Below, one piece after another: positions 1-50,581 of a DNA stretch of 64,000 bases. Both the position numbers and the translations under genes were made by a program. Origin of the DNA: Anaerolineae bacterium (GTDB lineage Bacteria > Chloroflexota > Anaerolineae > JACRMK01); NCBI GenBank assembly GCA_038198935.1, contig JBBPZQ010000103.1, forward strand, positions 25,649 through 89,648. The letters are read 5' to 3'. Numbering within the stretch: position 1 is the stretch's first letter; the number at the start of each line of letters is the position of its first letter. Below the pieces are notes generated by a model. That model was not told the DNA's origin and ran no database searches. It saw only the letters and a program-made list of their open reading frames with translations.

Positions 1-197
1 AAGCACAAATTAGATGCGTTTGCCCGTTTGCTCGTTTGCTCACACACATTGACGACGCTCGGCAACTATGATACACTCTGCTCATCTTACGGAAGGAGGC
101 GCACAGTTCGATGGCAGCCAAATTGATGAACGTTAACGCAATGCTCGAACTGAGTGCGCCTGCCGCGCGGTAATCTTCCTCTAAGTTTAGATGCCTC

Positions 198-230
198 GCC
201 ACGGGTGCGCTCGCACCCGTGGCTTTTTTT
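198..230 (+). terminator. Rho-independent terminator (hairpin GCCACGGGTGCG/CGCACCCGTGGC followed by T7)
   Basis: Perfect 12-bp inverted repeat with 2-nt loop followed by TTTTTTT, seen directly. Confidence 0.7.
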
Positions 231-257
231 GCGCCTTGCGCCGTTCGCGTGCGCACT

Positions 258-288
258 GCCACGGGCAATATCGGCTCGTGGCTTTTTT
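258..288 (+). terminator. Second tandem terminator-like hairpin (GCCACGGG...CTCGTGGC + T6)
   Basis: Imperfect 8-bp stem with 9-nt loop followed by TTTTTT, 28 nt after the first terminator. Confidence 0.5.
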
Positions 289-424
289 GCACCACGTTGA
301 AAATTCCGAATGTTGGTCCGAATGTTGGATTGTATGCGCGCATGCTGCGGCGCACAGAAACCAAAGACCGCGCGGGTCGCGTAGATCCGCGCGGTCGCGC
401 CACGACTGAAGGAGTCACCACACC

Positions 425-13157: not shown

Positions 13158-14558
13158 TCAAGCTAGCGAGAGTGAATTCAAGAAGTCGAGCACGATGCGA
13201 TTGAACTCGTCGGGTCGTTCCATGTTGGGCAGATGTGCGGTGCCGCGCATCACTCTCGTCTGCGCGTTGGGGATTTGCTCGCCCAGCACTTTGCATGTCT
13301 GGTCAGTCTCCGTTGGGTCAAGGTCACCATAGATGATGAACGTCGGCATCCGAATCTCGTTCAAGCGGTTCACCGCTGGCGGGTCGAGCTGCTTGGGCGT
13401 CCACTCGGTCGTGTCCTCGTCCTGCATCATCGTGCGCACCTTGTCGCGCATCGCGGCGGGTACACGCTCGCGCGGTTGCAGCGGTCCATCAACCCACACC
13501 TGCATCTGCAACTCAATATATTGCGCGCTGTCTTTGTCTTTCCAGGCTTGTTGGCCGCGCGCGAACGTTTCTTTTTCCCACTGTGCTTTCGCGTCGTCCC
13601 CCATCGGGGGCCAGTAGCCGCTCAGACCCGGGGCGACGGCGATGAACGCCGCTACCATCTCCGGATGTTCGAGCGCGAAATCAATCGTCAAGCCGCCGCC
13701 CATCGAGACGCCGCACAGATACGCGCGCTCCACCTCGAGATGGTTGAGCAGGGCGAACAGGTCGTCGCGCAGGCTGTAGGTGCCGGCCTCGGTTTTGGAT
13801 TTGCCGAAGCCGCGCATGTCCCAACGGATCACGCGATAACGTTCCGCGAACTCCGCAACCTGCTCGTCCCACATGCGATGGTCGGCAATGCCTGCATGCA
13901 GCAAGACGAGTGGATGTCCTTCGCCCTGCTCCTCGTAATACAAATTACAGCCGTCCACTTTGATGAAGCCTGATGACATCGCTATCCCTCCATGCTGTCG
14001 CAAGCTGCGCGCAATCTCGTCGCGTTTGTTGCTGACGGCAGCCGTGAGCGCAGTGCGGTTCTGGTAATCGCGCGCGTTCACGTCCGCGCCGTGCACGAGC
14101 AGCCACTCGACCAACGGTGGGTGATTGAAATACACAGCGCCATGCAGCGGCGGACTAATACCGTCGCCGCCGTTCACAGGCGCGCCGTGCGCGAACAGCA
14201 GCTCGGCAATGTCCAAACGACCGCTGATGGCGGCAAAATAGAGCGCGGGCAAGCCGTGTGCGCCGCTGGCTTTTGCGAGTGAGGCATCGCCTTGCAGCAT
14301 TGCCGCGACGCGCTCATGCTCGCCGAGCATTGCGGCGGTGCAGATGTCAAGCGGCGCGCCAGCATCCAGCAAGAGTTGCACAATCTCCCGCTGGCCCGTT
14401 TGTGCTGCCGCTTGAATCGGGGTCTCTATCCAACTGGCATTCGTCGTCGCTAACACGGGGTATTGCGCCAGTAGCGTCTTGACGCGCGCGAAGTCACCAT
14501 GACAGACGCCGACGAATTCATCAATGATGTTTTGGGGGATGGCTGTGCTCGAACTCAT
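13158..14558 (-). CDS. ankyrin-repeat domain fused to an alpha/beta hydrolase domain
   Basis: 466 aa; N-terminal ankyrin repeats (TPIQAAAQTGQREIVQLLLDAGAPLD...), C-terminal hydrolase (HPLVLLHAG, GVSMGGG). Confidence 0.75.
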   Translation of the reverse strand: MSSSTAIPQNIIDEFVGVCHGDFARVKTLLAQYPVLATTNASWIETPIQAAAQTGQREIVQLLLDAGAPLDICTAAMLGEHERVAAMLQGDASLAKASGAHGLPALYFAAISGRLDIAELLFAHGAPVNGGDGISPPLHGAVYFNHPPLVEWLLVHGADVNARDYQNRTALTAAVSNKRDEIARSLRQHGGIAMSSGFIKVDGCNLYYEEQGEGHPLVLLHAGIADHRMWDEQVAEFAERYRVIRWDMRGFGKSKTEAGTYSLRDDLFALLNHLEVERAYLCGVSMGGGLTIDFALEHPEMVAAFIAVAPGLSGYWPPMGDDAKAQWEKETFARGQQAWKDKDSAQYIELQMQVWVDGPLQPRERVPAAMRDKVRTMMQDEDTTEWTPKQLDPPAVNRLNEIRMPTFIIYGDLDPTETDQTCKVLGEQIPNAQTRVMRGTAHLPNMERPDEFNRIVLDFLNSLSLA

Positions 14559-15510: not shown

Positions 15511-15786
15511 TTAATCGCTTTGGGTTCCGACGATAGTAGTCACCTCTTTCCAGATTCGAGTTTTAGGTATGGTTAAAGTTAGAGGTTCTGGCAAAACATT
15601 GGGCAGTGCGATGCCCAGAGCAATGGCGACGGCGCGCAGCGCATCACAGTAGCCGTCGCGATAAGTTTGTAATTCAGAAAGATCATTGGCATTGGCGGCG
15701 AGTCGCACGAGCATCGTGCCGTTCGCCTCGTTCAGCGCGAGAAGCGTGTGCTGGATGTCTTCCTTAAACCACACGTCGAGGCTCAC
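15511..15786 (-). CDS. hypothetical small protein, translationally coupled to the FtsK-like gene
   Basis: 91 aa; start overlaps the upstream gene stop (ATGA). Confidence 0.4.
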   Translation of the reverse strand: MSLDVWFKEDIQHTLLALNEANGTMLVRLAANANDLSELQTYRDGYCDALRAVAIALGIALPNVLPEPLTLTIPKTRIWKEVTTIVGTQSD

Positions 15787-16826
15787 GCAGCCATCCTCTG
15801 CAATAGCGCCGACTGTGGCATGCGCATTGCACTCAGCAACTCGTGCGTATCATCGCGCGTAGCGAACGCGGATTGGAAGCGAATCGTCTGCCCCTCGGCG
15901 ACGAGCAGAAACTCGCCGTGTCCGCCCAACTTCTCTGCGCCTGTGCCGCCGATGCCTGAGGCGGTGCGCGCGTCTTCCGGGCTTGCGACTTTGCCGATGA
16001 GGCGCGTCGGGAAGTTGCTCTTCACGATGCCGCTCATCACTTTGCTGCTCGGTTTTTGCGTCGCCGCGATGACGTGAAAGCCGGCTTCGCGTCCGCGCTG
16101 CACCAGCCGCATCAACGGCTGCTCGATTTGCTTGCCGCCGGTTTGCAGCAAGTCTGCCAACTCGTCAATCGCGATCACCACGCGTGGACGGCTCACTTGC
16201 TCCGCGTCGCGCCGCTCCATGTGCGCCACCAATTTATTCAACACTTGAATCGCATCGTTCGTCTCGCGCACGGCGGGGTAGAGCAGGTGCGGCAATTCGC
16301 TCAGGTGTTCGAAGCCGCGCCCTTTGGGGTCAATCAACACCAAGCGCAATTCGCTGGAGCGATTGAAGCGCGCGAGCGAGAGCAACATGCTGCGCACGAG
16401 CGCGGTCTTGCCCGAACCTGTCGTGCCCGCGACCAGCACATGGGCGATGGATGGACTTGACAAGCGCAGCAGCAATGGATTGCCGTTCGCATCCAAGCCG
16501 AGCACGGCCGTGGTGGCGGGTGCATTGCCCAATTGCTTGCACAACTTTGCGAGCGCAACCGGCTCGCGGTCGTCGCGCGGCAACTCGATCTGTACCATGC
16601 CGCCCTCGCGCTGGATGCGCACGTTCGACGCGCCGAGCGCGAGCGCGATCTCCTCGGTCAACGCGGCGAGCTTGTTCAACTTGATGCTGGGCGACAGATT
16701 GAGATTGAAGCGCACGACGCTTGGCGTGACCGTGCCGCCCGCGACATGCGCGGGCAGCTTGTGCTGCGCCAAGACCATTTCAATCTGGTCGGCTTGCAAG
16801 TTGAGGCGAGTGGTTCGGTTGCTCAT
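15783..16826 (-). CDS. FtsK/SpoIIIE family ATPase (motor domain only)
   Basis: 347 aa; Walker A GTTGSGKT, Walker B VVIAIDELADL, FtsK-like layout without a membrane or gamma domain. Confidence 0.75.
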   Translation of the reverse strand: MSNRTTRLNLQADQIEMVLAQHKLPAHVAGGTVTPSVVRFNLNLSPSIKLNKLAALTEEIALALGASNVRIQREGGMVQIELPRDDREPVALAKLCKQLGNAPATTAVLGLDANGNPLLLRLSSPSIAHVLVAGTTGSGKTALVRSMLLSLARFNRSSELRLVLIDPKGRGFEHLSELPHLLYPAVRETNDAIQVLNKLVAHMERRDAEQVSRPRVVIAIDELADLLQTGGKQIEQPLMRLVQRGREAGFHVIAATQKPSSKVMSGIVKSNFPTRLIGKVASPEDARTASGIGGTGAEKLGGHGEFLLVAEGQTIRFQSAFATRDDTHELLSAMRMPQSALLQRMAA

Positions 16827-16955: not shown

Positions 16956-17627
16956 TTACGCGGCGAGTTGGCGGATGACGACCAGCACCTTGCCTTGAAT
17001 CTCGACGTTGCCGGGGTGAGCGAAGATCGGCTGCATCGTCGGGTTGGCGGGCTGCAAGCGGATGCGGCCCTTCTCGCGATAGAATCGCTTCAAGGTCGTC
17101 TCGCCCTTGTCCTTCAGCCACACCGCAACCATATCGCCGTTGTGCACATCGGCTTCGCGCTTCATCACCACAATGTCGCCATCGTTGATGAGCGCGTCCA
17201 CCATCGAGTTGCCTTTGACGCGCAGCGCATACAAGCCTTCTTGCTCGCGCACGATGTCGCGCGTCAGCTCGACGCTCTCCTTCGGGATGTGCGAGAACGC
17301 ATCTTCGGCGACGGGCGCAGGCTTGCTCGCCACAATCGTGCCGACGAGCGGAATGCGGAAGCGATTGTCGCGCATCAGTGCGTCAAGCACTACAGGCGCA
17401 CGCGCGCCATCACGGCCCGCAATCTTCAAGCCGCGCGAGATCGTGCGGTCGCGTTCCAGCAAGCCTTCTTTTTCCAATTTGTCGAGATTGTAGTTGACGA
17501 CGGAGGTGGAACTGATGCCGACTTCTTTCCCGATCTCGCGAATAGTCGGTGGATAGCCTTGGCGATCCGAGAAGTCACGGATGAACCTCAGCATGTGATC
17601 TTGGCGGGGGGATAGCGCCATAGCCAT
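16956..17627 (-). CDS. lexA: LexA repressor
   Basis: 223 aa; HTH N-domain, Ala-Gly cleavage region, S24 peptidase motifs (GNSM, VVMKREADVHNGDMVAV, TLKRF). Confidence 0.9.
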   Translation of the reverse strand: MAMALSPRQDHMLRFIRDFSDRQGYPPTIREIGKEVGISSTSVVNYNLDKLEKEGLLERDRTISRGLKIAGRDGARAPVVLDALMRDNRFRIPLVGTIVASKPAPVAEDAFSHIPKESVELTRDIVREQEGLYALRVKGNSMVDALINDGDIVVMKREADVHNGDMVAVWLKDKGETTLKRFYREKGRIRLQPANPTMQPIFAHPGNVEIQGKVLVVIRQLAA

Positions 17628-17698: not shown

Positions 17699-17884
17699 TA
17701 TGTCAAGCAGAATGTTTGTGCTAATGCGGCGGACGCTGCGTGTGCGTCGGGACAGCCTACAGATGCGGCTACGGTGATGCTAGGCGACAATTTGTGTGGT
17801 CGACCCGTTTGACACGGTTGCTACACTGAATGAGTAGATTGAGCCTTGTGCTGTCCGTTTCGGTTTGCCGCAAGGAGATGCGCA

Positions 17885-20275
17885 ATGAAAGAAAACGTCA
17901 TCAAGGTTGACGGACTGCTGACCGCAGGCTGTGCGCGCAACGTCGAGAACGCGCTGCTGAAAATTCCTGGCGTGCACCATGTGTCCGCCAACTACCTCAA
18001 TAGCACGGCGACCGTGCATTACGACGAGTCGCAAGTCTCGCTGCCCACATTGCAGTCTGCCGTGAAAGATTGCGGTTATGTCTGCGCGGGCGAGAGCCGC
18101 CCCGAGCACATGCAGCACGCTGCGCACGAGGCTCACTCGATGCACGCGCAAACTGAACACGCGATGCACACTGCGCCGTCCGCCGTCAGTCGTCCACCGT
18201 CCACCGCCCAAGACCACAGCGCACATGCGGCGATGAGCGCAATGGAAGATCACAGCGCGCACGGCGGCAGACCCGGCATGAGCGCCGCCGACATGGAACG
18301 CGACATGCGCAATCGCTTCCTTATCTCGCTCGTACTGACCGTGCCCGTGTTCCTGTTCTCGCATCTCGCGCGGCAGATTCTCGGCATCATGCTGCCGATG
18401 CCGTTCGGCATGGACGACAAGTTGTTCGGCTTTGTCCTGACCACGCCCGTCGTACTCTACGGCGGCTGGCCGTTTTTTGTCGGCGCGCGCAACGGCTTGC
18501 GGCAGGGCGTACTGAACATGAGCGTGCTCGTCACGCTCAGTGTGCTCACGGGTTATATCTTTTCGGTCGCCGCCACGTTCCTGTTCAACGGCGAAGTGTT
18601 CTACGAAGCGGCGGCGATGCTCGTCACGTTCGTGCTGTTCGGGCATTGGATGGAGATGCGCGCGCGTCGCACGACGGGTCAGGCGATTGAGAAGTTGCTG
18701 CAACTCGCGCCGCCGCACGCGACGGTCATTCGCGACGGCAACGAGATGGAAGTGCCGACGGAGCAGATCGTCGTCGGCGATGTGTTGCTCGTGCGGCCGG
18801 GTGAGAAGGTCGCGGTGGATGGCGCCGTCATTGAAGGCGAATCGTCGGTTGACGAAAGCATGATTACCGGCGAGAGCCTGCCCGTGCACAAGCAGAATGG
18901 CGATGCGGTTATCGGCGCGAGCCTCAACAAAACCGGTGCGTTCAAGTTTCGCGCAACCAAAGTCGGCACGGACACGACGCTCGCGCAAATCGTCAAACTC
19001 GTGCAAGCCGCGCAAAACTCCAAAGCGCCAGCGCAGCGATTGGCAGACCGCGCCGCGCATTATCTGGTGCTGGTCGCCGTCATCGCCGGCGTGAGCACGT
19101 TCCTGCTGTGGTATTTCGTGCTCGCGCCGCGCTTCATGCCGCCCGACGCCGACCGACTGGTGTTCGCGCTGACGTTCGCCATCACCGTCGTGGTCATCAC
19201 GTGCCCTGATGCACTCGGTCTCGCCACGCCGACCGCCATCATGGTTGGCACTGGACTGGGCGCGCGGCACGGAATTCTCTTCAAAGATGCCGCCGCGCTC
19301 GAAGGCGCCGCCAAGATTAACGCGGTCATCTTCGATAAGACCGGCACGTTGACCAAAGGCGAACCCGAAGTCGTGGATGTTGCCGTGCGTGATGGTATCA
19401 CGCAGGATGAACTGCTCGCGCTTGTCGCGTCTGCCGAGCAAAGCAGCGAGCATCCGCTGGCGCACGCCATCGTCAAAGCCGCTCACGCAAAAGGACTTGC
19501 GCTCTCAGACGTGCATCAGTTCGAGGCGGTGCCGGGACTCGGCTTGCAAGCGCACGTCGCCGAGCACGCGCTCTTGATTGGCAATCGCAAACTGCTCGAC
19601 GACCATCGCATCTCGCTCGACGGACTTGGTTCGCGGGCGGACGAGTTGGCGAGCGGCGGACGCACGGTCATTCACATTGCGCTGGATGGACGCGCGGCGG
19701 GACTCATCGCCGTCGCCGACGCGCCACGCGAGTCCGCCAAGCAAGCCATCGCGCAACTGAGCGCGCTCGGCATCGAGTCGGTGATGCTGACAGGCGACAA
19801 CCACGCGACGGCCGAACGCATCGCGCGCGACCTCGGCATCACGACCGTGTTTGCGGAAGTGTTGCCTGGCCAGAAGGCGGATAAGGTGAAGGAGATTCAG
19901 TCGCGCGGAAAGCATGTGGCGATGGTCGGCGACGGCATTAACGATGCGCCCGCGCTCGCGCAAGCCGACGTGGGCATCGCCATTGGTGCGGGCACCGACG
20001 TGGCGGTCGAGACCGCCGACGTGGTTTTGATGCGCTCCGACCCGCTCGACGTGGCGCGCGCGGTGCGGCTCGGACGCGAGACGGTGCGGAAGATGAAGCA
20101 GAACTTGGCGTGGGCAGTCGGCTACAACAGCGTGGCGATTCCGATTGCGGCAGGCTTGCTCTATCCGGCGTTCCACATTTACTTGCAGCCTGCGATTAGC
20201 GCGCTCTCGATGTCCGGCTCTTCGATTCTCGTCGCCGTCAACGCCGTGCTGCTCAAGAACGCGCGCATTGATTGA
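17885..20275 (+). CDS. heavy metal-translocating P-type ATPase (P1B type)
   Basis: [19 protein letters not shown] motifs; HMA-like N-terminal domain with a single Cys; His-rich stretch; membrane CPD (not CPC) motif; AAGGAG RBS before ATGAAAGAA. Confidence 0.9.
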
Positions 20276-20294
20276 GAGCGGTCGTGCGAAAAGC

Positions 20295-20331
20295 AAATCG
20301 GGCCACCTGACGGTGGCCCGATTTCTTTTTG
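20295..20331 (+). terminator. Rho-independent terminator after the P-type ATPase
   Basis: AAATCGGGCCACC-TGA-CGGTGGCCCGATTT hairpin followed by CTTTTTG. Confidence 0.8.
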
Positions 20332-20353
20332 TAAATGTTGAAGACTTGTAAGG

Positions 20354-21151
20354 CTACTGTACCCAGATGACGAACGTGACGACTTTTTCGCCGCCGCCGA
20401 AATCGCGTACGAAAGTCGCCTCGCGTGCACTGTTGCTGACGAGGGTGCCCCACTCACTGCGCTCGCTGACGTCAACGTTGGATGCGCCGCCTTTCATACT
20501 GAAGGCAGGCATGCCACTCAATGTGCTGAACGAGTCGAGGTGTGTGTAGATTGTCACCAACTCGTTGTAGTCGTGCGTATTGGGGTGCGTGCTCGTGGTG
20601 TCCGAATTACTCGTATTGTGATAGTAATCCATGCACGTGTTCTGTGACGACCCATCGGTGCTTTGATGATCGAGACCGAATGTGTGACCGATCTCCTGGC
20701 AGATCACGTGCTGCATCTCCTGCGTGTTATTGTATTGGTACGACGAGCTACCGAAGTAGTAGTCGTTGTTCTTCACCACACCCTGCGTGATGTGCTCGCC
20801 GCCCGTGATCCAGATTTGCGCCAAACCGAGCCAGCCGGTGTTGCCGTAGTCGGCGCTGCAGACCTCGTCTTGCCCGCTAGTTGGACGGCAACCCTTGGGT
20901 CGGGTCCCACCCGGGACGATCGTCGTATTGAGCACCGTGGAAGCTGTCCAATCGGATGATGCGGTGATAAGCATTCCATCCCACAGTCCTGAGACGTTAT
21001 CGCCGAGTTTGAGCGTAAACGGGTTGGCCGTGCGCGCCCAGTGGTATCCGCCCCACGAATTGGTTGCGCTGGCGTTCGATGGAAACGCAAACACGCCGAC
21101 GACTGCGATCACGACGACGGCATACAGAATTGAACGCATGTTGAACTTCAT
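20354..21151 (-). CDS. secreted metzincin-type zinc metalloprotease
   Basis: Start MKFNMRSILYAVVVIAVVGVFA (signal peptide) with AGGAGAG RBS; HEIGHTFGLDH = HExxHxxGxxH zinc motif. Confidence 0.7.
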   Translation of the reverse strand: MKFNMRSILYAVVVIAVVGVFAFPSNASATNSWGGYHWARTANPFTLKLGDNVSGLWDGMLITASSDWTASTVLNTTIVPGGTRPKGCRPTSGQDEVCSADYGNTGWLGLAQIWITGGEHITQGVVKNNDYYFGSSSYQYNNTQEMQHVICQEIGHTFGLDHQSTDGSSQNTCMDYYHNTSNSDTTSTHPNTHDYNELVTIYTHLDSFSTLSGMPAFSMKGGASNVDVSERSEWGTLVSNSAREATFVRDFGGGEKVVTFVIWVQ

Positions 21152-21256
21152 AGGTAGCACTCTCCTCTTGAGTAGTTGACCTGCAACGATCCTGACTGCG
21201 TGCTGAAAGTGGCGTGAGGTTATTTCGGCGCACCTCCTTTCGATTGTCGCCATCAA

Positions 21257-21361
21257 ACAAAAAGCGATGACCCGCGCGCAAACGCAAGTCACCGCTTCGT
21301 TCTTAGGCTTCCATCGCCGACGTACATGCAAATATTCTACATAGTTCAAAGCGTATTGCAA
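21257..21361 (-). promoter_or_regulatory. leader of the metalloprotease gene: promoter (TTGCAA-N16-TAGAAT), conserved box CATGTACGTCGGC, intrinsic terminator-like hairpin + U-run
   Basis: On the minus strand: -35 at 21356..21361, -10 at 21334..21339, box at 21316..21328, hairpin at 21264..21295 followed by TTTTTGT. Confidence 0.5.
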
Positions 21362-21432
21362 ATTTTCCGTTTAGGACTTGTGTACTATTGGACAATACAA
21401 AGCGGGCAACTCGTGAATTGCCCGCTCTTGTC

Positions 21433-23061
21433 CTATATACAACTGCTGAATTTGAACGAAACGATCCACGTGCTCCAGTTGAACGTGCCACTCGACTTTA
21501 GATACTCCGACGTGAACCAGAACGTGCAGTCGTCAACCGGATCAACGGTCATCGCGCTGTAGTCGCCCCAGCGGCTCAGGTTCGGCAGCTGTGAGCCGCC
21601 GCCCGGCTTTACGATCGTTTCTGCACCCATCGTGTTGAGCGCATCAGTCGCCGCGCGCCCCGTGTAGCGCAGTGACGGCAATACGCTGCTGGACGACGCG
21701 CTGTAGCCAAGTGCGATGTCGCCATTCTTGTCCATCGCGATACTGCCCATCCAGCGCGAGGTCGAATCGGGTGAGTACGTCCCTTGCTGATACACGACGG
21801 GCGTACCATTTGCCATCGTGTTGCCCGACGGATTGCGCAGTTCATACCAGCGCACACCCGTGACACTGCTGTGCTTGTTGCCGGAAATGGCAACAGAGTG
21901 ATTGACGACCAGCGATTCAACGCCGGCGCGATTGCGATAGGCGAGGCGATACATCAAGCGGTCGGCGAGCGAATCCAACTGCTGGCGCGTGTTGGGCTGC
22001 GGGATGCAGTTGCCGCCGCCACTGCACGCCGTATTGAACGCGGCGACGGGAATATTGGTGGGACCCGTGAGCGTGCTGTTCGCGCTGTTCGTCCAGTCCA
22101 CGTGGAACTTCCACAGGTTCAGCGAGTTGTTGGCGAAATTCATGAAGAAGTTCGGCGACCCGGTGGGCGGCGCCGTCGAGCCATCGAGATCGGACGGCAG
22201 CAGTCCGCCGTAAGCAGTGCTCAATTGGTAGCACTGCTGATTTGCCGAAGCGCCCGCGAGCATCGCGGTGCGATCAAACGCGCACACCTTCGAACCGGCG
22301 AATGTCTGCCCGTTGTTGAAGATGTTGTAAGAAATGTAGTAGCCGTCGGGCCACACGCCGAGCTTGGGATAGTCGTTGAACTGCGAGCCGTAGCTGAACG
22401 AGTAGCGGTTGTACGTGCCTGTTGCGTCGGAAGTCGTCGAAACAGCAACGCACTGCAAGTAGGGCAGTGTGGACACCGAGAACTGTGTCATGATCCAGCG
22501 CCCGGCAGCCTTGTCATATTGCACAATCGGGTCGCCGTCGTTGTTCGTCTCGCACGCGCCGCCAAAACCAGCCCACAGCGCATTGCCTGCCTTGGGGTAT
22601 CCAGCCAGTATCGCGCCCGTTGTCTTGTCGTAGACCGCAAACGCTGTGTTGACCCACTGCACGTACTGTGTCGCTCCGACTGCGCCGTTGGTGTCTGGCG
22701 GCGCGCAGTTGCAGGGATTGGAGGGCGTGTTACTCGTGTCGCCAATGCCGTCGAAGCTCAAAGCACCAGCCACGTTCACGACGGGCCCCGCTTGCGATTG
22801 CACCACCGGGTCATTCTCCGCATTCGACGCGCCATGCACGCCGAGAATGCGCAGCGGGCGTTCGGTTAAATTCCGCGCGCTCGGCGATGACGGCTGATTG
22901 CCGATTGGCCCCGACACATCGTGATGCACATTGGCGCTCACTTCGACTTGCGGCGCTTGCTCGTTCGGCTGCGCCAGCACGCTCTGTGCTGTCGAAGCGA
23001 TCACGACGAGCACGAGCGCCAATGCGAAAACTGCAAACCACTTCATGTTCTTGTAAGACAT
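21433..23061 (-). CDS. secreted hypothetical protein (Cys-containing, Asn/Thr/Ser-rich)
   Basis: 542 aa; signal peptide MKWFAVFALALVLVVIASTAQSVLA; AGGAGAG RBS; no recognisable family. Confidence 0.6.
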   Translation of the reverse strand: MSYKNMKWFAVFALALVLVVIASTAQSVLAQPNEQAPQVEVSANVHHDVSGPIGNQPSSPSARNLTERPLRILGVHGASNAENDPVVQSQAGPVVNVAGALSFDGIGDTSNTPSNPCNCAPPDTNGAVGATQYVQWVNTAFAVYDKTTGAILAGYPKAGNALWAGFGGACETNNDGDPIVQYDKAAGRWIMTQFSVSTLPYLQCVAVSTTSDATGTYNRYSFSYGSQFNDYPKLGVWPDGYYISYNIFNNGQTFAGSKVCAFDRTAMLAGASANQQCYQLSTAYGGLLPSDLDGSTAPPTGSPNFFMNFANNSLNLWKFHVDWTNSANSTLTGPTNIPVAAFNTACSGGGNCIPQPNTRQQLDSLADRLMYRLAYRNRAGVESLVVNHSVAISGNKHSSVTGVRWYELRNPSGNTMANGTPVVYQQGTYSPDSTSRWMGSIAMDKNGDIALGYSASSSSVLPSLRYTGRAATDALNTMGAETIVKPGGGSQLPNLSRWGDYSAMTVDPVDDCTFWFTSEYLKSSGTFNWSTWIVSFKFSSCI

Positions 23062-23206
23062 TCAACTCTCTCCTCTTGAACTGTCGGCAGTCATTCACCG
23101 CCGAAACTTACGTTGCCTTTGAACTCGCAACGCGCATGGGACAGCACGACGGGTGGTTCGTCGAAATACAATCAATTGGGAGTGGCGCCTCCTTACACTG
23201 GCGAGC

Positions 23207-23322
23207 AAATAAAAAGCGATGACCTGCGCTTGTGCGCAAGTCATCGCTCGCTTGTTAGGCTGACTTTGCCGACGTACATGAGATGTATTTTACAGGAGGT
23301 TAGCGCGCTATCCAAAAAGTGC
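23207..23322 (-). promoter_or_regulatory. leader of the secreted-protein gene: promoter (TTGGAT-N17-TAAAAT), conserved box CATGTACGTCGGC, strong hairpin + U-run
   Basis: -35 at 23310..23315, -10 at 23287..23292, box at 23268..23280, hairpin GCGATGACTTGCGC/GCGCAGGTCATCGC at 23216..23247 followed by TTTTTAT on the minus strand. Confidence 0.5.
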
Positions 23323-23499
23323 GATAGCATATATTGCCTATTGCCTACTGCTTATTTTCGGCTAACGTGTTCGCCTTGTACAAAGACGCGAAGCCGCACG
23401 TTTCTCAATCATTGTATCGTTGCGTACTTTGTGTTTGCTGTGAGCACGAATCAGTCACGGGCGACCACTACGGTCGCCCGTTGTTGCTCATCAATAAGA

Positions 23500-25737
23500 T
23501 TAGCTTCGCGGTCCGCGGTCGCCGCCGCCACGGAATGGCGGACGTCCGCCACGATCTCCGCCGCGGTCGCCACCACCACGATAGCCGCCACCGTCACGTC
23601 CACCGCCAGAGCGCCCGCCACTGCTCGGCTTGCGGTCGGCATCACGCGCTTGCTCCGCCGTCCAGCCCGCCAGTACTGCCTGGCGCGACAAACGCACCTT
23701 GCCGGCCGGATCAATGTCAATCACCATCACCGTCAACTCGTCGCCGAGCTTCACGATGTCCTCGACGCGGTTCACGCGATAGTCGGCTAACTGCGAGATG
23801 TGTACCATGCCGTCCAGCCCGGGCAGAATCTCCACGAACGCGCCAAAGTCGGCGACGCGCGTGACCTTGCCCGTGTAAATGTCGCCGATCTTCGCGTCTT
23901 CGGTCATGGCGCGAATCTTCGCCTCGGCGGCCGCAGCACCCGCGCCGTCGGGCGACGAGATGAACACCGAGCCGTCGTCCTCCACGTCAATCTTCACCTT
24001 GAACTCTTCGATCATCGCGCGAATCGTCTTGCCGCCAGGCCCGATGACCTTGCCGATCTTCTCCGGATCAATCTTGACGACGGTCACGCGCGGCGCGTAC
24101 TGACTCATCTCTGCGCGCGGCTGGTTGATCGCCGCCAGCATCTTGTCCATGATGAACATGCGGCCCTCGCGCGCCTGCGCCAATGCTTGCGTCATGATGT
24201 CGGCACGCAATCCTTTGATCTTCATGTCCATCTGCAACGCGGTGATGCCCTTCGCGGTGCCCGCGACCTTGAAGTCCATATCGCCGAGCGCGTCTTCCAT
24301 GCCCTGAATGTCGGACAGCACGGCGTACTTGCCGTCGTCGCGCGTGACGAGTCCCATGGCGATGCCAGCGACAGGCGCTTTGATCTTCACGCCCGCGTCC
24401 ATGAGCGCCAGCGTGCTCGAGCACACCGACCCCATCGAGGTCGAGCCGTTCGACGAGAGCACTTCGGACACGACGCGCACGGTGTACGGAAAGTCTTGCT
24501 CGTCAGGAATCACATTGCGCAGTGCAGTCTCCGCCAGCGCGCCGTGGCCGATCTCGCGGCGGCGCGGTCCCCGCATCGGATACGCTTCGCCCGTGCTGAA
24601 CGGCGGGAAGTTGTAATGATGGATGTAGCGTTTCGATTCTTCGGGGCGCAGTCCGTCCAAGGATTGCTCTTCGCCCACGGTGCCGAGTGTGGCGATGGAC
24701 AGCACTTGCGTCTGGCCGCGCGTGAACAAGCCCGAACCGTGCGCACGCGGCGAGAGGCCGACCTCAGAGCTGATGGGGCGAATCTCTGTCAGGCCGCGTC
24801 CATCAGGGCGAATGCCCTTGTCGAGGATCGCATTACGGACTTCGGTCTTCATCGCCGCGTCGAAACCCGCTTTGACTTCGGCCGGGTCCAGATCGGACAG
24901 CGACGCTTTCAGGTTGTCTTCAATGGTGTCGAGCGCGGACTCGCGCGCTTCTTTCGAGAGCGATTGCGAGAGCACATCGGTGATGCGCGTGCCGAGTTTC
25001 GCGACGACGGCGTCATGCGCGTCGCTCTTCGCGGCGGCGGGGTAGCTCATCTTCGGCTTGCCCATCTCTTTGGCCATCTGGTTCTGCAACACGATGACAT
25101 TTTGGATCGCCTGGTGTCCGCTGTTGAGCGCATTCAGCATCACATCTTCGGGCACTTCGTTCGCGCCCGCTTCGACCATCAGGATCGCTTCGCTCGTGCC
25201 CGCCAAACGCAGGTCGAGTTGCGACTTTTCCATCTGGTCGGCGGTCGGGTTCATCACAAAAGCGCCGTCAATCATGCCGACGCGCACCGCGCCGATGGGG
25301 CCATAGAACGGGATACTGCTGATCATCAATGCGGCGGACGCGCCGATAATGGCGGGGATGTCGAGATAGTTTTGTACGTCGTAAGAGATGGTCGTGGCGA
25401 CGACTTGCACGTCGTTGCGGAAATCTTTGGGGAAGAGGGGCCGCAGCGGGCGGTCTATCAGACGGGCGACCAGGATCGCGGCTTCGCTCGGTCGGCCCTC
25501 GCGGCGGAAGAATGAGCCGGGGATGCGGCCTGCCGCGTAGAGCCTCTCTTCAAATTCGACCGACAGCGGGAAGAAATCAATGTCGGGACGCGCGCTTTTG
25601 CTGGCAGTGGCTGTGACGAGCACGACCGTGTCGCCGATGCGCACCGTCACCGCGCCGCCGGCCAGCTGTGCCAGCTTGCCCGTCGAGATAACAACGTCTT
25701 GTTCGCCAAGTTTGGCGGTATAAACTTTTTCGTCCAT
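23500..25737 (-). CDS. pnp: polyribonucleotide nucleotidyltransferase (PNPase) with Arg/Gly-rich C-terminal tail
   Basis: 745 aa; two RNase PH domains, KH and S1 domains, plus about 50 aa of RGG-type tail. Confidence 0.95.
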
Positions 25738-25856
25738 GTGTGACTCCTGAGATAGTTGATTAGTTTGTTAGTTGGCTGATGCTTGAGTTGGCTAACCAAC
25801 GAACAAACCATCCAACCAACCAACGATTCTCCACAGAAGTCAGGGACTGGAAACTG

Positions 25857-25908
25857 GATCCAACCTTTGCTCTCTCCCTTGTGAAACGGGGGAGGGTGGG
25901 GGTTGGAT
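25857..25908. repeat. GC-rich palindromic element / stem-loop in the pnp 5' leader
   Basis: GATCCAACC-TTTG-CTCTCTCCC-ttgtgaaac-GGGGGAGGG-TGGG-GGTTGGAT. Confidence 0.55.
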
Positions 25909-25969
25909 GCACTCTCCAATTCCTGCCCTTCTGAGGATCAATTCATTGTGGGGTGAGCGCGCCTCCTTT

Positions 25970-26018
25970 GTCAAAACGACAAAACGAGCAGAGGAGTATG
26001 CCGCCTCTACTCGTTTTC
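25970..26018 (-). terminator. rpsO terminator / pnp leader hairpin
   Basis: AAAACGAG..CCTCTACTCGTTTT inverted repeat directly downstream of the rpsO stop, with T-runs on both sides. Confidence 0.55.
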
Positions 26019-26054
26019 AGTGTTCGGGATTGCAGTCGTGTCTGTCAAACCAGA

Positions 26055-26324
26055 TTACTTGCGCAAACCGAGCTTGGCGATGATCTCTTTGTAGCGGTTG
26101 GCGTCTTTCTTGCTCAGATATGTCAGATGCCGTCTGCGCTGCCCGACCAGTTTCAACAAGCCATGCCGTGAGCCATGATCGTGCTTATGTGACTTCAGGT
26201 GCTCGATCAACTGATTGATACGAGTCGTGAGCAGCGCGATCTGCACCTCTGGCGAACCGGTATCACTGGTGTGAATGTGGTATTGCTTGATAATATTTTC
26301 CTTGGCTTGACCTTTCAGAGCCAC
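26055..26324 (-). CDS. rpsO: 30S ribosomal protein S15
   Basis: 89 aa, canonical S15 sequence ([48 protein letters not shown]). Confidence 0.95.
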
Positions 26325-49829: not shown

Positions 49830-49941
49830 TTGACATCTCCATCATCGGATGTTATATTGTGTTCGAGCGGTCTCGTAAGTCCTGGTGTCACTGGCTCCAC
49901 ATTTGGGAGTCCCACTCCGTCCAAACGGTCTTCAGTGATCG

Positions 49942-50581
49942 TCACTGGTCACGGTGGTCATCGGTGCCTAGGGTGAGCCGCTTTTTCTTTTTGGTGCTCA
50001 AATCGTCGAAGTGGATGATCTTCGAGCGGATGATGTTGTAGTACTCGCTGTGATGATGACGATAGTGCTGCATCACAGCCCAAGCCACGAAGTCGGGCGC
50101 GATCATCTCAGGCATTGTCTGTGAGTCGGTCTGATGCAGACGGACGATGTTGCCAGCAACGCCCGCAATCGCCTCGCGTAACCCCAGCCTCCAAGTCCGC
50201 TTGTTGTCTCTTGTTGGTGTGACGTTTGTCAATAAACAGGTCTATGCGAATGTGTCGCCTCACTGCTTGAAGCGCACAACCCTCAATCAATTCTTGGTAA
50301 AGTCTTTCGTAATCCTCAAGCGCATTTCCTCTATTACGCCAGATTGCAACATCAATCGAGATAACCGGATCGTCAGCAAGCGCATTCAGAACCTTTCGCA
50401 ATGTGCGCGGCGGTGAAACGGACGCTTTCAACTCGGAACGCGCTTTCAATTTCAGGACACGCCTCAAGCGTCGCATCGCCAATTCTAGATGGCGGCGATT
50501 CGTCGTGACGACCGAGACGACGGCGACGAAGTGGTCGTCGCTAGTTGCGTACAAGGACTCGTCAACGAAGGCTGCAATCAC
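49942..50581 (-). pseudogene. DUF3800-family gene disrupted by a frameshift
   Basis: The N-terminal part (MIAAFVDESLYAT..., GTG start at 50581) is in the 50108..50581 frame; a plausible C-terminal continuation is in the 49942..50232 frame. Confidence 0.45.

What the first reader, a model, noticed from the sequence alone, without database searches (positions are those of the whole stretch)
21257..23322. Duplicated promoter-to-terminator leader upstream of two adjacent secreted-protein genes
- Each of the two secreted-protein genes (metzincin 20354..21151; large secreted protein 21433..23061) is preceded by the same roughly 90-nt element in the same order:
  - a sigma70-like promoter;
  - the box CATGTACGTCGGC;
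  - a hairpin (GCGRTGAC...GTCAYCGC) + U-run that looks like an intrinsic terminator, about 110-160 nt before the start codon.
- Both genes also share the RBS context TCAAGAGGAGAG.
- A terminator placed inside a 5' leader and conserved between two genes is the signature of an attenuator, riboswitch expression platform or small cis-regulatory RNA.
Basis: seen in the sequence. Interest (0 to 1): 0.55.

Follow-up and report, generated by a model that had tools for sequence, protein, structure and literature searches.

The report
Duplicated promoter-plus-terminator leader cassette
Two neighbouring secreted-enzyme genes in an uncultured Chloroflexota bacterium each carry a copy of the same 5' control region, in which a promoter is followed about 30 bases later by a strong transcription stop signal; this most likely makes their expression depend on read-through of that stop, an ordinary kind of bacterial control in a version not seen elsewhere.

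Summary
Both genes and both elements lie on the minus strand. Each gene is preceded by a sigma-70-like promoter, the invariant box CATGTACGTCGGC at the predicted transcription start, a 16-17 bp hairpin with a U-run (-25 and -29 kcal/mol), AAGGAGG 19-22 nt after the hairpin stem, and the RBS block TCAAGAGGAGAG.

Identity between the copies is mosaic:
- box 13/13, AGCCTAA 7/7, each stem arm 13/14, U-tract 9/10;
- hairpin loop 0/5, short spacers 2/6, rest of the leader 29%.
This looks like an old duplication with selection on specific blocks.

No Rfam family matches. No third copy turned up in the window, in 80 genome loci holding homologues of the large gene, or in a metagenome pattern scan. The closest relatives (PNPase 86-95% identical) lack these genes downstream of pnp, so covariation cannot be tested.

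Homologues of the large gene in other Chloroflexota show the same layout with different sensors. Two carry a sub-threshold c-di-GMP-II riboswitch, then a terminator, then AGGAGG.

Best reading: a portable cis-acting attenuator cassette plus a STAB-SD-like element. The trigger is unknown. Rival readings are a pair of small RNAs, a leaderless 12-codon leader ORF, or plain upstream-gene terminators. It is a new member of a known kind, of modest interest.

The parts
21356..21361 (-). Copy 1 promoter, -35 hexamer TTGCAA
   Evidence: Consensus scan; sequence.
21334..21339 (-). Copy 1 promoter, -10 hexamer TAGAAT (16-nt spacer, TG directly upstream)
   Evidence: The -10 region matches copy 2 in 8 of 9 positions.
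21316..21328 (-). Copy 1 invariant box CATGTACGTCGGC. The A at 21327 lies 7 nt after the -10 hexamer and is the predicted transcription start.
   Evidence: 13/13 identical to copy 2. The start-site position is inferred from promoter geometry.
21289..21327 (-). Copy 1 possible leaderless 12-codon ORF (MYVGDGSLRTKR, then a stop). Its TGA lies in the 5' arm of the terminator. Hypothetical.
   Evidence: Read from the sequence. Not statistically supported; see the rival explanations.
21303..21309 (-). Copy 1 second invariant block AGCCTAA (+19 to +25). GCC can pair with GGC of the box to form a 3-bp mini-hairpin.
   Evidence: 7/7; fold.
21251..21298 (-). Copy 1 intrinsic terminator: 17-bp stem, 4-nt loop, U-tract TTTTTGTTTG
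   Evidence: -24.7 kcal/mol.
21230..21239 (-). Copy 1 Shine-Dalgarno-like AAGGAGGTGC, 22 nt after the hairpin stem, with no start codon at usable spacing (STAB-SD-like)
   Evidence: sequence.
21160..21171 (-). Copy 1 shared RBS block TCAAGAGGAGAG
20354..21151 (-). Secreted metzincin-like protein gene (265 aa, signal peptide)
23310..23315 (-). Copy 2 promoter, -35 hexamer TTGGAT
   Evidence: Read from the sequence. The scan reports the overlapping TGGATA with a 16-nt spacer.
23287..23292 (-). Copy 2 promoter, -10 hexamer TAAAAT (TG directly upstream)
23268..23280 (-). Copy 2 invariant box CATGTACGTCGGC. The A at 23279 lies 8 nt after the -10 hexamer.
23241..23279 (-). Copy 2 possible leaderless 12-codon ORF (MYVGKVSLTSER, then a stop). 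Its TGA lies in the 5' arm of the terminator. Hypothetical.
   Evidence: Read from the sequence.
23255..23261 (-). Copy 2 invariant block AGCCTAA
23204..23249 (-). Copy 2 intrinsic terminator: 16-bp stem, 4-nt loop, U-tract TTTTTATTTG
   Evidence: -28.8 kcal/mol.
23185..23194 (-). Copy 2 Shine-Dalgarno-like AAGGAGGCGC, 19 nt after the hairpin stem, with no start codon at usable spacing
23068..23079 (-). Copy 2 shared RBS block TCAAGAGGAGAG
21433..23061 (-). Secreted 542-aa protein gene (signal peptide, predicted beta-propeller, no Pfam match)
21400..21428 (-). Hairpin directly after the 542-aa gene (GAGCGGGCAA..TTGCCCGCTT, then TGTATTGT). Its U-tract is weak.
   Evidence: Sequence. It was not called as a terminator by the scan, and it is absent from the list, which requires four T in a row.
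23459..23479 (-). Hairpin directly after pnp (GGGCGACC..GGTCGCCC) with no U-tract on this strand
   Evidence: Sequence. Not called.
25959..26015 (-). Analogous junction elsewhere in the window: the rpsO terminator (25983-26015) followed by AAGGAGGCGC (25959-25968) ahead of the pnp leader

Best explanation
The two elements are copies of one complete 5' regulatory region, running from promoter to RBS. It has been placed in front of two unrelated secreted-enzyme genes and works in cis as a promoter-proximal transcription attenuator.

**Proposed sequence of events**
1. Transcription starts at the A of the invariant box.
2. About 70 nt later most polymerases stop at a strong intrinsic terminator and release a short RNA.
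3. Only read-through transcripts reach the gene.
4. Read-through RNA carries AAGGAGG(Y)GC about 20 nt after the hairpin. This is an unusually long match to the 16S rRNA 3' end with no usable start codon. I read it as a STAB-SD-type ribosome-binding stabiliser of the long leader.
5. Because the 5' box (+1 to +13) and AGCCUAA (+19 to +25) are conserved base for base while their neighbours are randomised, I infer that a trans-acting factor recognises them and sets the read-through frequency. The factor could be an RNA-binding antiterminator or a polymerase-modifying NusG- or Q-type factor.

**Shown:** the anatomy, the duplication, the mosaic conservation, the absence of another promoter, and the analogous layouts in homologues.

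**Inferred:** that termination is partial or conditional, the stabiliser role, and the existence and nature of the factor.
For: - **Promoter then terminator.** The promoter-then-terminator order, with no promoter-like site between hairpin and gene, holds in both copies. Both hairpins are as strong as the gene-end terminators of the window.
- **Mosaic identity.** The box is 13/13, AGCCTAA 7/7, the stem arms 13/14 each and the U-tract 9/10. The loop is 0/5, the short spacers 2/6 each and the remaining leader 37/126. The two stem differences both convert a G-U pair to an A-U pair.
- **Whole leader copied.** The RBS block is 12/12 identical. Two metzincin homologues from other genomes have unrelated RBS contexts. 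This suggests the whole leader was copied as one unit, so it is an mRNA leader and not a free-standing gene.
- **Same layout in homologues.** L002 and L010 have a promoter, a c-di-GMP-II-like aptamer (36.7 and 37.8 bits), a terminator overlapping the aptamer 3' end, AGGAGGTGC, about 95 nt, then the RBS. L004 has a TTGACA-16-TAAAAT promoter, about 105 nt, a terminator, then AGGAGG. L009, L012, L087 and L100 have promoters followed by leaders containing a hairpin and T-run.
- **AAGGAGG is rare and placed consistently.** It occurs 5 times in 64 kb, and AGGAGGYGC 4 times. Three of these sit 14-22 nt after a terminator hairpin stem and ahead of a long leader: copy 1, copy 2 and the rpsO-pnp junction. 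An SD-like motif after the rpsO terminator is also present in relatives L103 and L104, with a weaker GGAGG in L105.
- **Precedent.** STAB-SD in cry3A is described in PMC4113751.
Against: - There are only two copies and no orthologues, so there is no covariation or phylogenetic support.
- No expression data exist. Read-through, conditionality and the predicted start site are all untested.
- No conserved antiterminator structure was found. Pairing of the box with the terminator 5' arm is possible in both copies, but it is no better than chance (P about 0.13-0.23).
- The segment ahead of the terminator is very short, and no candidate regulator gene was seen among the neighbours examined by Pfam.
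- The consensus scan covers only sigma-70-type promoters. A promoter for another sigma factor downstream of the hairpin cannot be excluded.
Confidence: 0.5

Rival explanations
1. The promoter-to-terminator units are two paralogous small RNA genes of about 70 nt that act in trans. The invariant single-stranded 5' end would be the seed and the terminator hairpin with its U-tail the scaffold. The adjacent protein genes would be expressed only incidentally, or the leader would be dual-function.
For: - Each unit has its own promoter, a Rho-independent terminator and a predicted 70-nt product.
- Conservation has the pattern of sRNA paralogue pairs such as OmrA/OmrB: identical 5' end and 3' hairpin with a diverged middle (the comparison is from my own knowledge).
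- Short terminated leaders acting in trans are known from riboswitch-derived sRNAs (own knowledge).
Against: - Conservation continues beyond the terminator, in AAGGAGG and the 12/12 RBS block, so the duplicated unit is the whole mRNA leader.
- No other promoter serves either gene.
- No target site stands out among 41 translation-initiation regions in the window. The best seed duplex is -12.9 kcal/mol, weaker than the median best of shuffled seeds at -14.2. This test has low power.
- No other copies were found anywhere.
Confidence: 0.2
2. This is translation-coupled attenuation by a leaderless leader ORF. The transcript would begin with AUG and encode 12 residues (MYVG..SL...R). The stop codon UGA lies inside the 5' arm of the terminator, so a ribosome reaching it would prevent hairpin formation and allow read-through. 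Poor translation of the leaderless ORF would give termination.
For: - In both copies the A of ATG lies 7-8 nt after the -10 hexamer and follows a C, the preferred start-site geometry.
- Both ORFs are open for 12 codons and end at the same in-stem TGA.
- Leaderless short ORFs that act as attenuators are documented in mycobacteria (bioRxiv 10.1101/834739; PMC4633059).
- Leaderless genes were predicted in 4 of 12 Chloroflexi genomes, at about 5% of genes (PMC3160421).
Against: - Conservation is at the nucleotide level, not the peptide level. The six fully conserved codons show no synonymous change, and five of the six differing codons change the amino acid, although unconstrained positions are saturated.
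- A 12-codon open frame is expected by chance about 59% of the time (my calculation).
- There is no run of regulatory codons.
- Most genes in the window have Shine-Dalgarno sequences (39 of 54 in a crude gene model).
Confidence: 0.1
3. The hairpins are simply the effective terminators of the upstream genes, pnp and the 542-aa gene. The resemblance would be left over from a duplication of intergenic DNA, and the promoter-like hexamers and box would have no regulatory role.
For: - The hairpins directly after pnp and after the 542-aa gene lack a run of four T. The leader hairpins are therefore the first canonical terminators downstream of those genes.
- The rpsO-pnp junction shows the same terminator-then-AAGGAGG arrangement, and there the terminator belongs to an upstream gene.
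Against: - A recent neutral duplication would not leave 100%-identical blocks beside blocks at 0-33% identity.
- The conserved part includes both promoter hexamers at correct spacing and a 13-nt box that a terminator does not need.
- Under this reading the two secreted-protein genes have no recognisable promoter at all.
- The two upstream genes are unrelated, so nothing explains a shared terminator with shared upstream sequence.
Confidence: 0.15

Closest known systems
Riboswitch or attenuator expression platforms built on an intrinsic terminator; nearest concrete case, the c-di-GMP-II-like leader upstream of the homologous gene in L002 and L010
   Same: - The order is promoter, sensor segment, intrinsic terminator, AGGAGG, about 100-nt leader, RBS.
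- It sits upstream of the same protein family.
- Expression requires read-through.
   Different: - The window elements have no c-di-GMP-II or other Rfam match, even at E up to 10.
- Only about 30 nt precede the terminator, against roughly 100 nt for the aptamer match in L002 and L010 (an 84-position model).
- No ligand-binding fold or alternative pairing could be demonstrated.
STAB-SD 5' mRNA stabiliser of Bacillus thuringiensis cry3A (Agaisse and Lereclus 1996; reviewed in PMC4113751)
   Same: - It is a strong Shine-Dalgarno-like sequence far upstream of the start codon (about 80-125 nt here, near -125 in cry3A).
- It is not used for initiation.
- It lies in the long leader of a highly expressed secreted or exported protein gene.
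   Different: - Function is untested here.
- Here the motif follows an intrinsic terminator, not a processing site.
- Whether the organism has RNase J was not checked.
Leaderless short-ORF attenuators of mycobacteria (bioRxiv 10.1101/834739) and pyrBI/pyrE-type translation-coupled attenuation in E. coli (own knowledge)
   Same: - A short ORF starts at the transcript's 5' end.
- Its translation could physically interfere with a downstream terminator hairpin.
   Different: - There are no regulatory codon runs.
- Conservation is at the nucleotide level, not the peptide level.
- Leaderless initiation is uncommon in Chloroflexi (PMC3160421).
Paralogous sRNA pairs with a shared 5' seed and terminator, such as OmrA/OmrB (own knowledge)
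   Same: - There are two nearby copies.
- The 5' end and 3' hairpin are identical and the middle has diverged.
   Different: - The copies are separated by a gene.
- Each is fused to a conserved downstream leader and RBS.
- No targets were found.
Processive antitermination at a promoter-proximal site: lambda Q at PR'/tR', RfaH at ops, LoaP (own knowledge)
   Same: - A constitutive promoter yields a short terminated RNA unless polymerase is modified.
- A short invariant leader element lies upstream of genes for secreted products.
   Different: - The box shows no similarity to ops or to a -10-like pause element.
- No Q, RfaH or LoaP gene was identified.
- The link is purely an analogy of architecture.
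The rpsO-pnp attenuated junction in the same window and its relatives
   Same: A terminator is followed within about 15-35 nt by an SD-like GGAGG motif (AAGGAGG in the window, L103 and L104) and then a long leader.
   Different: - There the terminator ends a real upstream gene.
- There is no promoter and no box directly in front of it.

Membership tests
Any Rfam 15 family (riboswitches, leaders, sRNAs) | Covariance-model match at the gathering score, or at least a suggestive E-value | tested here: not met
   A whole-window gathering scan found only DUF3800-III at 49864-49984. A permissive scan of 20300-23600 at E up to 10 gave only STnc250 over the hairpin after the 542-aa gene (E 0.16) and a prion pseudoknot (E 2.6); neither overlaps the elements.
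c-di-GMP-II riboswitch (RF01786) | Aptamer (84-position Rfam model) with pseudoknot and conserved core, upstream of an expression platform | tested here: not met
   No hit in the window leaders at E up to 10. In contrast, the leaders of homologues L002 and L010 score 36.7 and 37.8 bits, below the gathering score of 53.5.
Intrinsic (Rho-independent) terminator | G+C-rich stem-loop immediately followed by a U-tract on the transcribed strand | tested here: met
   Stems of 16-17 bp, 4-nt loops, TTTTTGTTTG and TTTTTATTTG tails; -24.7 and -28.8 kcal/mol, among the strongest in the window; z-scores -3.3 and -5.4.
Intrinsic (Rho-independent) terminator | Actually stops RNA polymerase in vivo or in vitro | not testable with these tools
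   Needs term-seq or in vitro transcription.
Sigma-70-type promoter | -35 and -10 hexamers at 16-18 nt spacing | tested here: met
   TTGCAA-16-TAGAAT and TTGGAT-17-TAAAAT. Both were called by the scan, which found 4 sites against 1.3 expected in the region. The hexamers are better conserved than the spacer. Activity is untested.
Leader-peptide attenuator | Short ORF in the leader positioned so that ribosome location controls terminator formation | tested here: inconclusive
   A 12-codon ORF with its stop codon in the terminator 5' arm exists in both copies. An open frame of this length is expected by chance, and the substitution pattern is not that of a coding sequence.
Leader-peptide attenuator | Run of regulatory codons and mutually exclusive antiterminator/terminator pairings | tested here: not met
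   There is no codon run. Box-to-5'-arm pairing of -8.2 and -6.9 kcal/mol is matched by 13-23% of shuffled or random boxes.
STAB-SD-type 5' stabiliser | Shine-Dalgarno-like sequence complementary to the 16S rRNA 3' end in the 5' UTR, not followed by a start codon | tested here: met
   AAGGAGGTGC and AAGGAGGCGC lie 19-22 nt after the hairpin stems, with no ATG, GTG or TTG at 5-10 nt.
STAB-SD-type 5' stabiliser | Binds the 30S subunit and protects the mRNA from 5'-to-3' decay | not testable with these tools
   Needs mRNA half-life measurements with the motif mutated.
Protein-dependent antiterminator targets (ANTAR two-hexaloop motif, RAT element of BglG/SacY type) | Two tandem hexaloop hairpins (ANTAR), or an imperfect hairpin of about 29 nt overlapping the terminator (RAT) (own knowledge) | tested here: not met
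   Ahead of the terminator, folding gives only one 3-bp stem with a 7-nt loop whose sequence differs between the copies. Compared by eye with consensus sequences recalled from memory, so this is a weak test.
Trans-acting sRNA | Own promoter and terminator, conserved seed, and complementary targets | tested here: inconclusive
   Promoter, terminator and a conserved 5' end are present. No target better than shuffled controls was found in the 64-kb window. The rest of the genome is not available.

The most novel reading that the evidence does not exclude
The invariant 5' segment of about 30 nt plus the terminator could be a previously undescribed minimal attenuator class, factor-dependent or dependent on leaderless translation and possibly doubling as a small RNA. 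A Chloroflexota lineage would use it as a portable cassette to bring horizontally acquired secreted-hydrolase genes under common control, taking the place that a c-di-GMP-II-type riboswitch occupies upstream of homologues in other Chloroflexota.
Probability: 0.15. Interest if true: 0.6.

Novelty: new member of a known kind. Interest (0 to 1): 0.35.

Why it matters
If read-through is regulated, this would be a compact control element of about 70 nt linking two very widespread but uncharacterised secreted protein families. One is a beta-propeller protein of about 540 aa with more than 8000 homologues. The other is a metzincin-like protein with an unusual QExxH motif. The phylum has almost no experimentally studied RNA regulation.

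The comparison with homologues also hints that this gene family is generally held behind leader terminators, in at least two cases apparently under c-di-GMP control. That gives a handle on when soil Chloroflexota deploy these enzymes.

With only two copies and no expression data, the practical value today is as a candidate for reporter assays or metatranscriptome mapping, not as an established mechanism.

Tried and rejected
- **Known RNA families.** Rfam at gathering and permissive thresholds found nothing at the elements.
- **More copies in the window.** blastn-short, a mismatch search and a covariance model with filters off found only the two copies. The next best hit is the rpsO terminator junction at 12.9 bits.
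- **Copies upstream of homologues.**
  - 80 genome loci of the 542-aa family, further contigs for the closest homologues of both proteins, nhmmer and the covariance model gave no sequence homologue of the core.
  - Smith-Waterman scores of the 5' segment against 85 leaders are below shuffled controls.
- **Metagenome pattern scan.** CATGTACGTCGGCN{5,7}AGCCTA gave five hits, none with the hairpin or the rest of the element. Most read as coding sequence, so I took them as chance matches.
- **Orthologous comparison through the adjacent pnp gene.**
  - Relatives with 95%, 88% and 86% identical PNPase were fetched. The DNA available downstream of pnp in all three has no match to the element.
  - L104, the only relative with more than about 250 nt downstream, continues with lexA. 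The two genes and copA therefore sit in an insertion of about 5.7 kb.
- **Extending beyond the window.** The look-up of an edge gene failed.
- **Antiterminator between box and terminator 5' arm.** It is possible in both copies but not better than chance.
- **Other ideas.**
  - Trans targets of the 5' seed in the window: none found.
  - Remnant of a c-di-GMP-II aptamer: the GTCGGCGA 8-mer shared with L002 is chance-level and the covariance model gives no hit.
  - DNA operator: the box has no dyad symmetry beyond GGC-N7-GCC.
  - AAGGAGG as the RBS of a small ORF: no start codon at usable spacing in either copy.
  - Regulator gene nearby: none was recognised among the neighbours scanned.
Full report
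**What is there**

The two genes and both elements lie on the minus strand.

Copy 1, reading 5' to 3' on that strand:
- the 542-aa gene stops at 21433, followed by its own hairpin at about 21400-21428 with a weak U-tract;
- -35 TTGCAA (21361-21356), a 16-nt spacer, and -10 TAGAAT (21339-21334);
- the box CATGTACGTCGGC (21328-21316);
- a 17-bp hairpin (21298-21261) with the tail TTGTTTGATG;
- AAGGAGGTGC (21239-21230);
- the RBS block TCAAGAGGAGAG (21171-21160) and the ATG at 21151.

Copy 2 follows pnp, which stops at 23500 and has a hairpin at about 23459-23479 with no U-tract:
- -35 TTGGAT (23315-23310), a 17-nt spacer, and -10 TAAAAT (23292-23287);
- the box (23280-23268);
- a 16-bp hairpin (23249-23214) with the tail TTTATTTGCT;
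- AAGGAGGCGC (23194-23185);
- TCAAGAGGAGAG (23079-23068) and the ATG at 23061.

The consensus scan called both promoters and both terminators. It found no promoter-like site between either hairpin and its gene.

**Is it more than chance?**

- The box occurs exactly twice. At up to 2 mismatches there are 7 matches against 2.5 expected, and no shuffle reaches 7.
- The RBS 12-mer occurs exactly twice against 0.23 expected.
- The 73-nt predicted transcripts fold at -31.8 and -33 kcal/mol, with z-scores of -3.3 and -5.4.
- In a scan of all hairpin-plus-T-run sites in the window, the two hairpins (-24.7 and -28.8 kcal/mol) rank with the true gene-end terminators.

The most informative result is the mosaic pattern of identity between the copies:

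| Segment | Identical positions |
|---|---|
| Box | 13/13 |
| Next 6 nt | 2/6 |
| AGCCTAA | 7/7 |
| Next 6 nt | 2/6 |
| 5' stem arm | 13/14 |
| Hairpin loop | 0/5 |
| 3' stem arm | 13/14 |
| U-tract | 9/10 |
| Leader up to the RBS | 37/126 |
| RBS block | 12/12 |

Both stem differences convert a G-U pair into an A-U pair. This is what an old duplication looks like when neutral positions have saturated and specific blocks are kept by selection.

**What the genes are**

- Both products have Sec-type signal peptides.
- The 265-aa protein gives only weak Pfam hits to metzincin families, E about 1e-3.
- Its family has more than 7800 homologues at 63-77% identity. It has an invariant HVICQExGHTxGLxH, with Gln where HExxH has its first His.
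- The 542-aa protein has no Pfam match. It has more than 8000 homologues, with 56-74% identity in genomes assigned to many phyla.
- Its AlphaFold model (pLDDT 57) is an all-beta propeller with weak sialidase/GH43-like matches, TM about 0.35.
- The organism is an unnamed Chloroflexota MAG.

**Search for relatives of the element**

- No Rfam family matches, at gathering or permissive thresholds.
- A profile HMM and a covariance model built from the two copies found nothing else in the window, apart from a weak structural echo at the rpsO terminator (12.9 bits). They also found nothing in about 100 fetched loci.
- A metagenome pattern scan gave five hits, none with the hairpin or the rest of the element; I took them as chance matches.
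- I tried to obtain orthologous regions through the adjacent pnp gene. Relatives with 95%, 88% and 86% identical PNPase exist. The DNA available downstream of pnp in all three has no match to the element.
- L104, the only relative with more than about 250 nt downstream of pnp, continues with lexA, an FtsK-like gene and later an ankyrin/hydrolase gene. In the window these lie at 16956-17627, 15783-16826 and 13158-14558. The metzincin gene, the 542-aa gene and copA therefore form an insertion of about 5.7 kb.
- The closest homologues of both proteins are only 73-77% identical, so there are no orthologues to compare.

**Context from homologues**

The sequence of the element is unique, but its architecture is not.
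- In L002 and L010 (Anaerolineales MAGs), a TTGACA...TATACT promoter lies upstream of the 542-aa homologue. It is followed by a sub-threshold c-di-GMP-II riboswitch match (36.7 and 37.8 bits against a gathering score of 53.5; E 2e-6 in the small search). Next comes a terminator whose 5' arm overlaps the aptamer's 3' end, then AGGAGGTGC about 30 nt later, then about 95 nt of leader and the RBS.
- L004 has TTGACA-16-TAAAAT, about 105 nt, a terminator, then AGGAGG.
- L009 and L012 (Ktedonobacterales MAGs) and L087 and L100 have strong promoters and long leaders containing a hairpin with a T-run.

So in Chloroflexota this gene family is repeatedly placed behind a leader terminator, with interchangeable sensor segments. 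This is the best indirect support for a cis-regulatory reading of the window elements.

**The AAGGAGG element**

- AAGGAGG occurs only 5 times in 64 kb, and AGGAGGYGC 4 times.
- Three of these sit 14-22 nt after a terminator hairpin stem and ahead of a long leader: copy 1, copy 2 and the rpsO-pnp junction.
- In relatives, an SD-like motif after the rpsO terminator is present in L103 and L104, with a weaker GGAGG in L105.
- The fourth AGGAGGYGC site (94-102, plus strand) lies about 17 nt after a promoter.
- In the two leaders no start codon follows at usable spacing.
- This matches the description of STAB-SD in cry3A. That element is a Shine-Dalgarno-like sequence in the 5' UTR which binds the 30S subunit without initiating translation and blocks 5'-to-3' decay by RNase J1 (PMC4113751).
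- A stabilising role here is inference.

**Mechanism**

- *Shown:* the only recognisable promoters fire into a strong terminator about 30 nt downstream, so gene expression needs read-through.
- *Inferred:* read-through is set by a trans-acting factor that recognises the invariant box (+1 to +13) and AGCCUAA (+19 to +25). Base-for-base conservation next to randomised neighbours is not required by a plain terminator.

I tested three specific mechanisms.
1. **RNA-only antiterminator.** The box can pair with the terminator 5' arm in both copies (9-11 bp), but 13-23% of shuffled or random boxes do as well. This is not supported.
2. **Leaderless leader peptide.**
   - The A of ATG sits 7-8 nt after the -10 hexamer. 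A 12-codon ORF ends at a TGA inside the terminator 5' arm in both copies.
   - Precedent exists in mycobacteria (bioRxiv 10.1101/834739; PMC4633059).
   - However, the conserved codons show no synonymous change, and five of the six differing codons change the amino acid. Such an ORF is open by chance about 59% of the time, and leaderless genes are uncommon in Chloroflexi (PMC3160421).
   - This is possible but weakly supported.
3. **Trans-acting sRNA.** The architecture fits, but conservation continues through the leader to the RBS, and no target stands out in the window.

The plain-terminator reading remains a partial possibility, because the hairpins directly after pnp and after the 542-aa gene lack a proper U-tract. 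It does not explain the conserved promoter and box, nor how the two genes would be transcribed.

**Comparison with known systems, and novelty**

- The element works like a terminator-based leader attenuator or expression platform.
- It is not a member of any Rfam family and fails the tests for c-di-GMP-II, classical leader-peptide attenuators, and ANTAR or RAT targets.
- It meets the sequence-level definition of an intrinsic terminator, of a sigma-70 promoter and of a STAB-SD-like motif.
- I class it as a new member of a known kind.

**Verdict**

Interest is 0.35: the feature is real and tidy, but there are only two copies, the lineage is narrow and there is no functional evidence. The most novel reading not excluded is a new minimal factor- or translation-dependent attenuator cassette used to domesticate acquired secreted-enzyme genes. 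I give it a probability of about 0.15.

Noticed in passing
window 49864-49984 (+): The only Rfam match in the window at gathering score is DUF3800-III RNA (RF02962), 55.8 bits, full length.
   Followed up: no
window 25735-26060 (-); L103 340-680, L104 700-1035, L105 5477-6006: In the rpsO-pnp intergenic region, the rpsO terminator (25983-26015) is followed by AAGGAGGCGC and a leader of about 220 nt. The leader contains a near-invariant hairpin block (CAGGAATTGGAGAGTGCATCCAAC ... TTGGATCCAGTTTCCAGTCCCTGACTTC) conserved across relatives with 86-95% identical PNPase. It is probably the pnp autoregulatory leader of this clade and has no Rfam match.
   Followed up: partly
window 49-300 (+): A TTGACG-17-TACACT promoter is followed by AAGGAGGCGC (93-102), a possible 20-codon ORF (111-173) and two tandem strong terminators (198-224 and 258-283), all upstream of a RIO-kinase gene (425-1360). 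This is another promoter, short unit, terminator, gene arrangement in the same genome.
   Followed up: partly
window 20354-21151 (-): In the metzincin-like family (more than 7800 homologues at 63-77% identity) the zinc motif is invariantly HVICQExGHTxGLxH, with Gln in place of the first His of HExxH. No Pfam model reaches its cut-off.
   Followed up: partly
window 21433-23061 (-): The 542-aa secreted protein has more than 8000 homologues, at 56-74% identity in genomes assigned to many phyla, including cultured Dyella and Oleiagrimonas. It has no Pfam domain. It is predicted as a beta-propeller with only weak sialidase/GH43-like structural matches. This degree of conservation is unusual for an uncharacterised secreted protein.
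   Followed up: partly
L002 997-1099 (+); L010 1249-1351 (+): A sub-threshold c-di-GMP-II riboswitch match (RF01786, 36.7 and 37.8 bits against a gathering score of 53.5) carries a 20-nt insertion and is followed by an overlapping terminator. It lies upstream of homologues of the 542-aa protein in two Anaerolineales MAGs and is probably a variant riboswitch.
   Followed up: partly
L009 about 1170-1500, L012 about 1170-1500, L017 about 1170-1500; L087 and L100 upstream of the gene: Two further types of long, structured 5' leader, conserved within each group, lie upstream of the same gene family. The Ktedonobacterales type has a CCAGG/CCTGG helix enclosing a GC-rich hairpin. The second type follows a TTGCCT..TGTTAGAAT promoter. 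None matches Rfam.
   Followed up: partly
window about 17800-23400: Compared with relative L104 (pnp directly followed by lexA), the window carries an insertion of about 5.7 kb holding copA (plus strand), the metzincin gene and the 542-aa gene. In the closest relative, L103, the roughly 250 nt available after pnp also has no match to the copy 2 leader. GC content is slightly lower over the two secreted-protein genes (0.51-0.61 against 0.62-0.65).
   Followed up: partly
window 20291-20327 (both strands): A single strong bidirectional terminator is shared by the convergent copA and metzincin genes (-25.5 and -26.4 kcal/mol).
   Followed up: no
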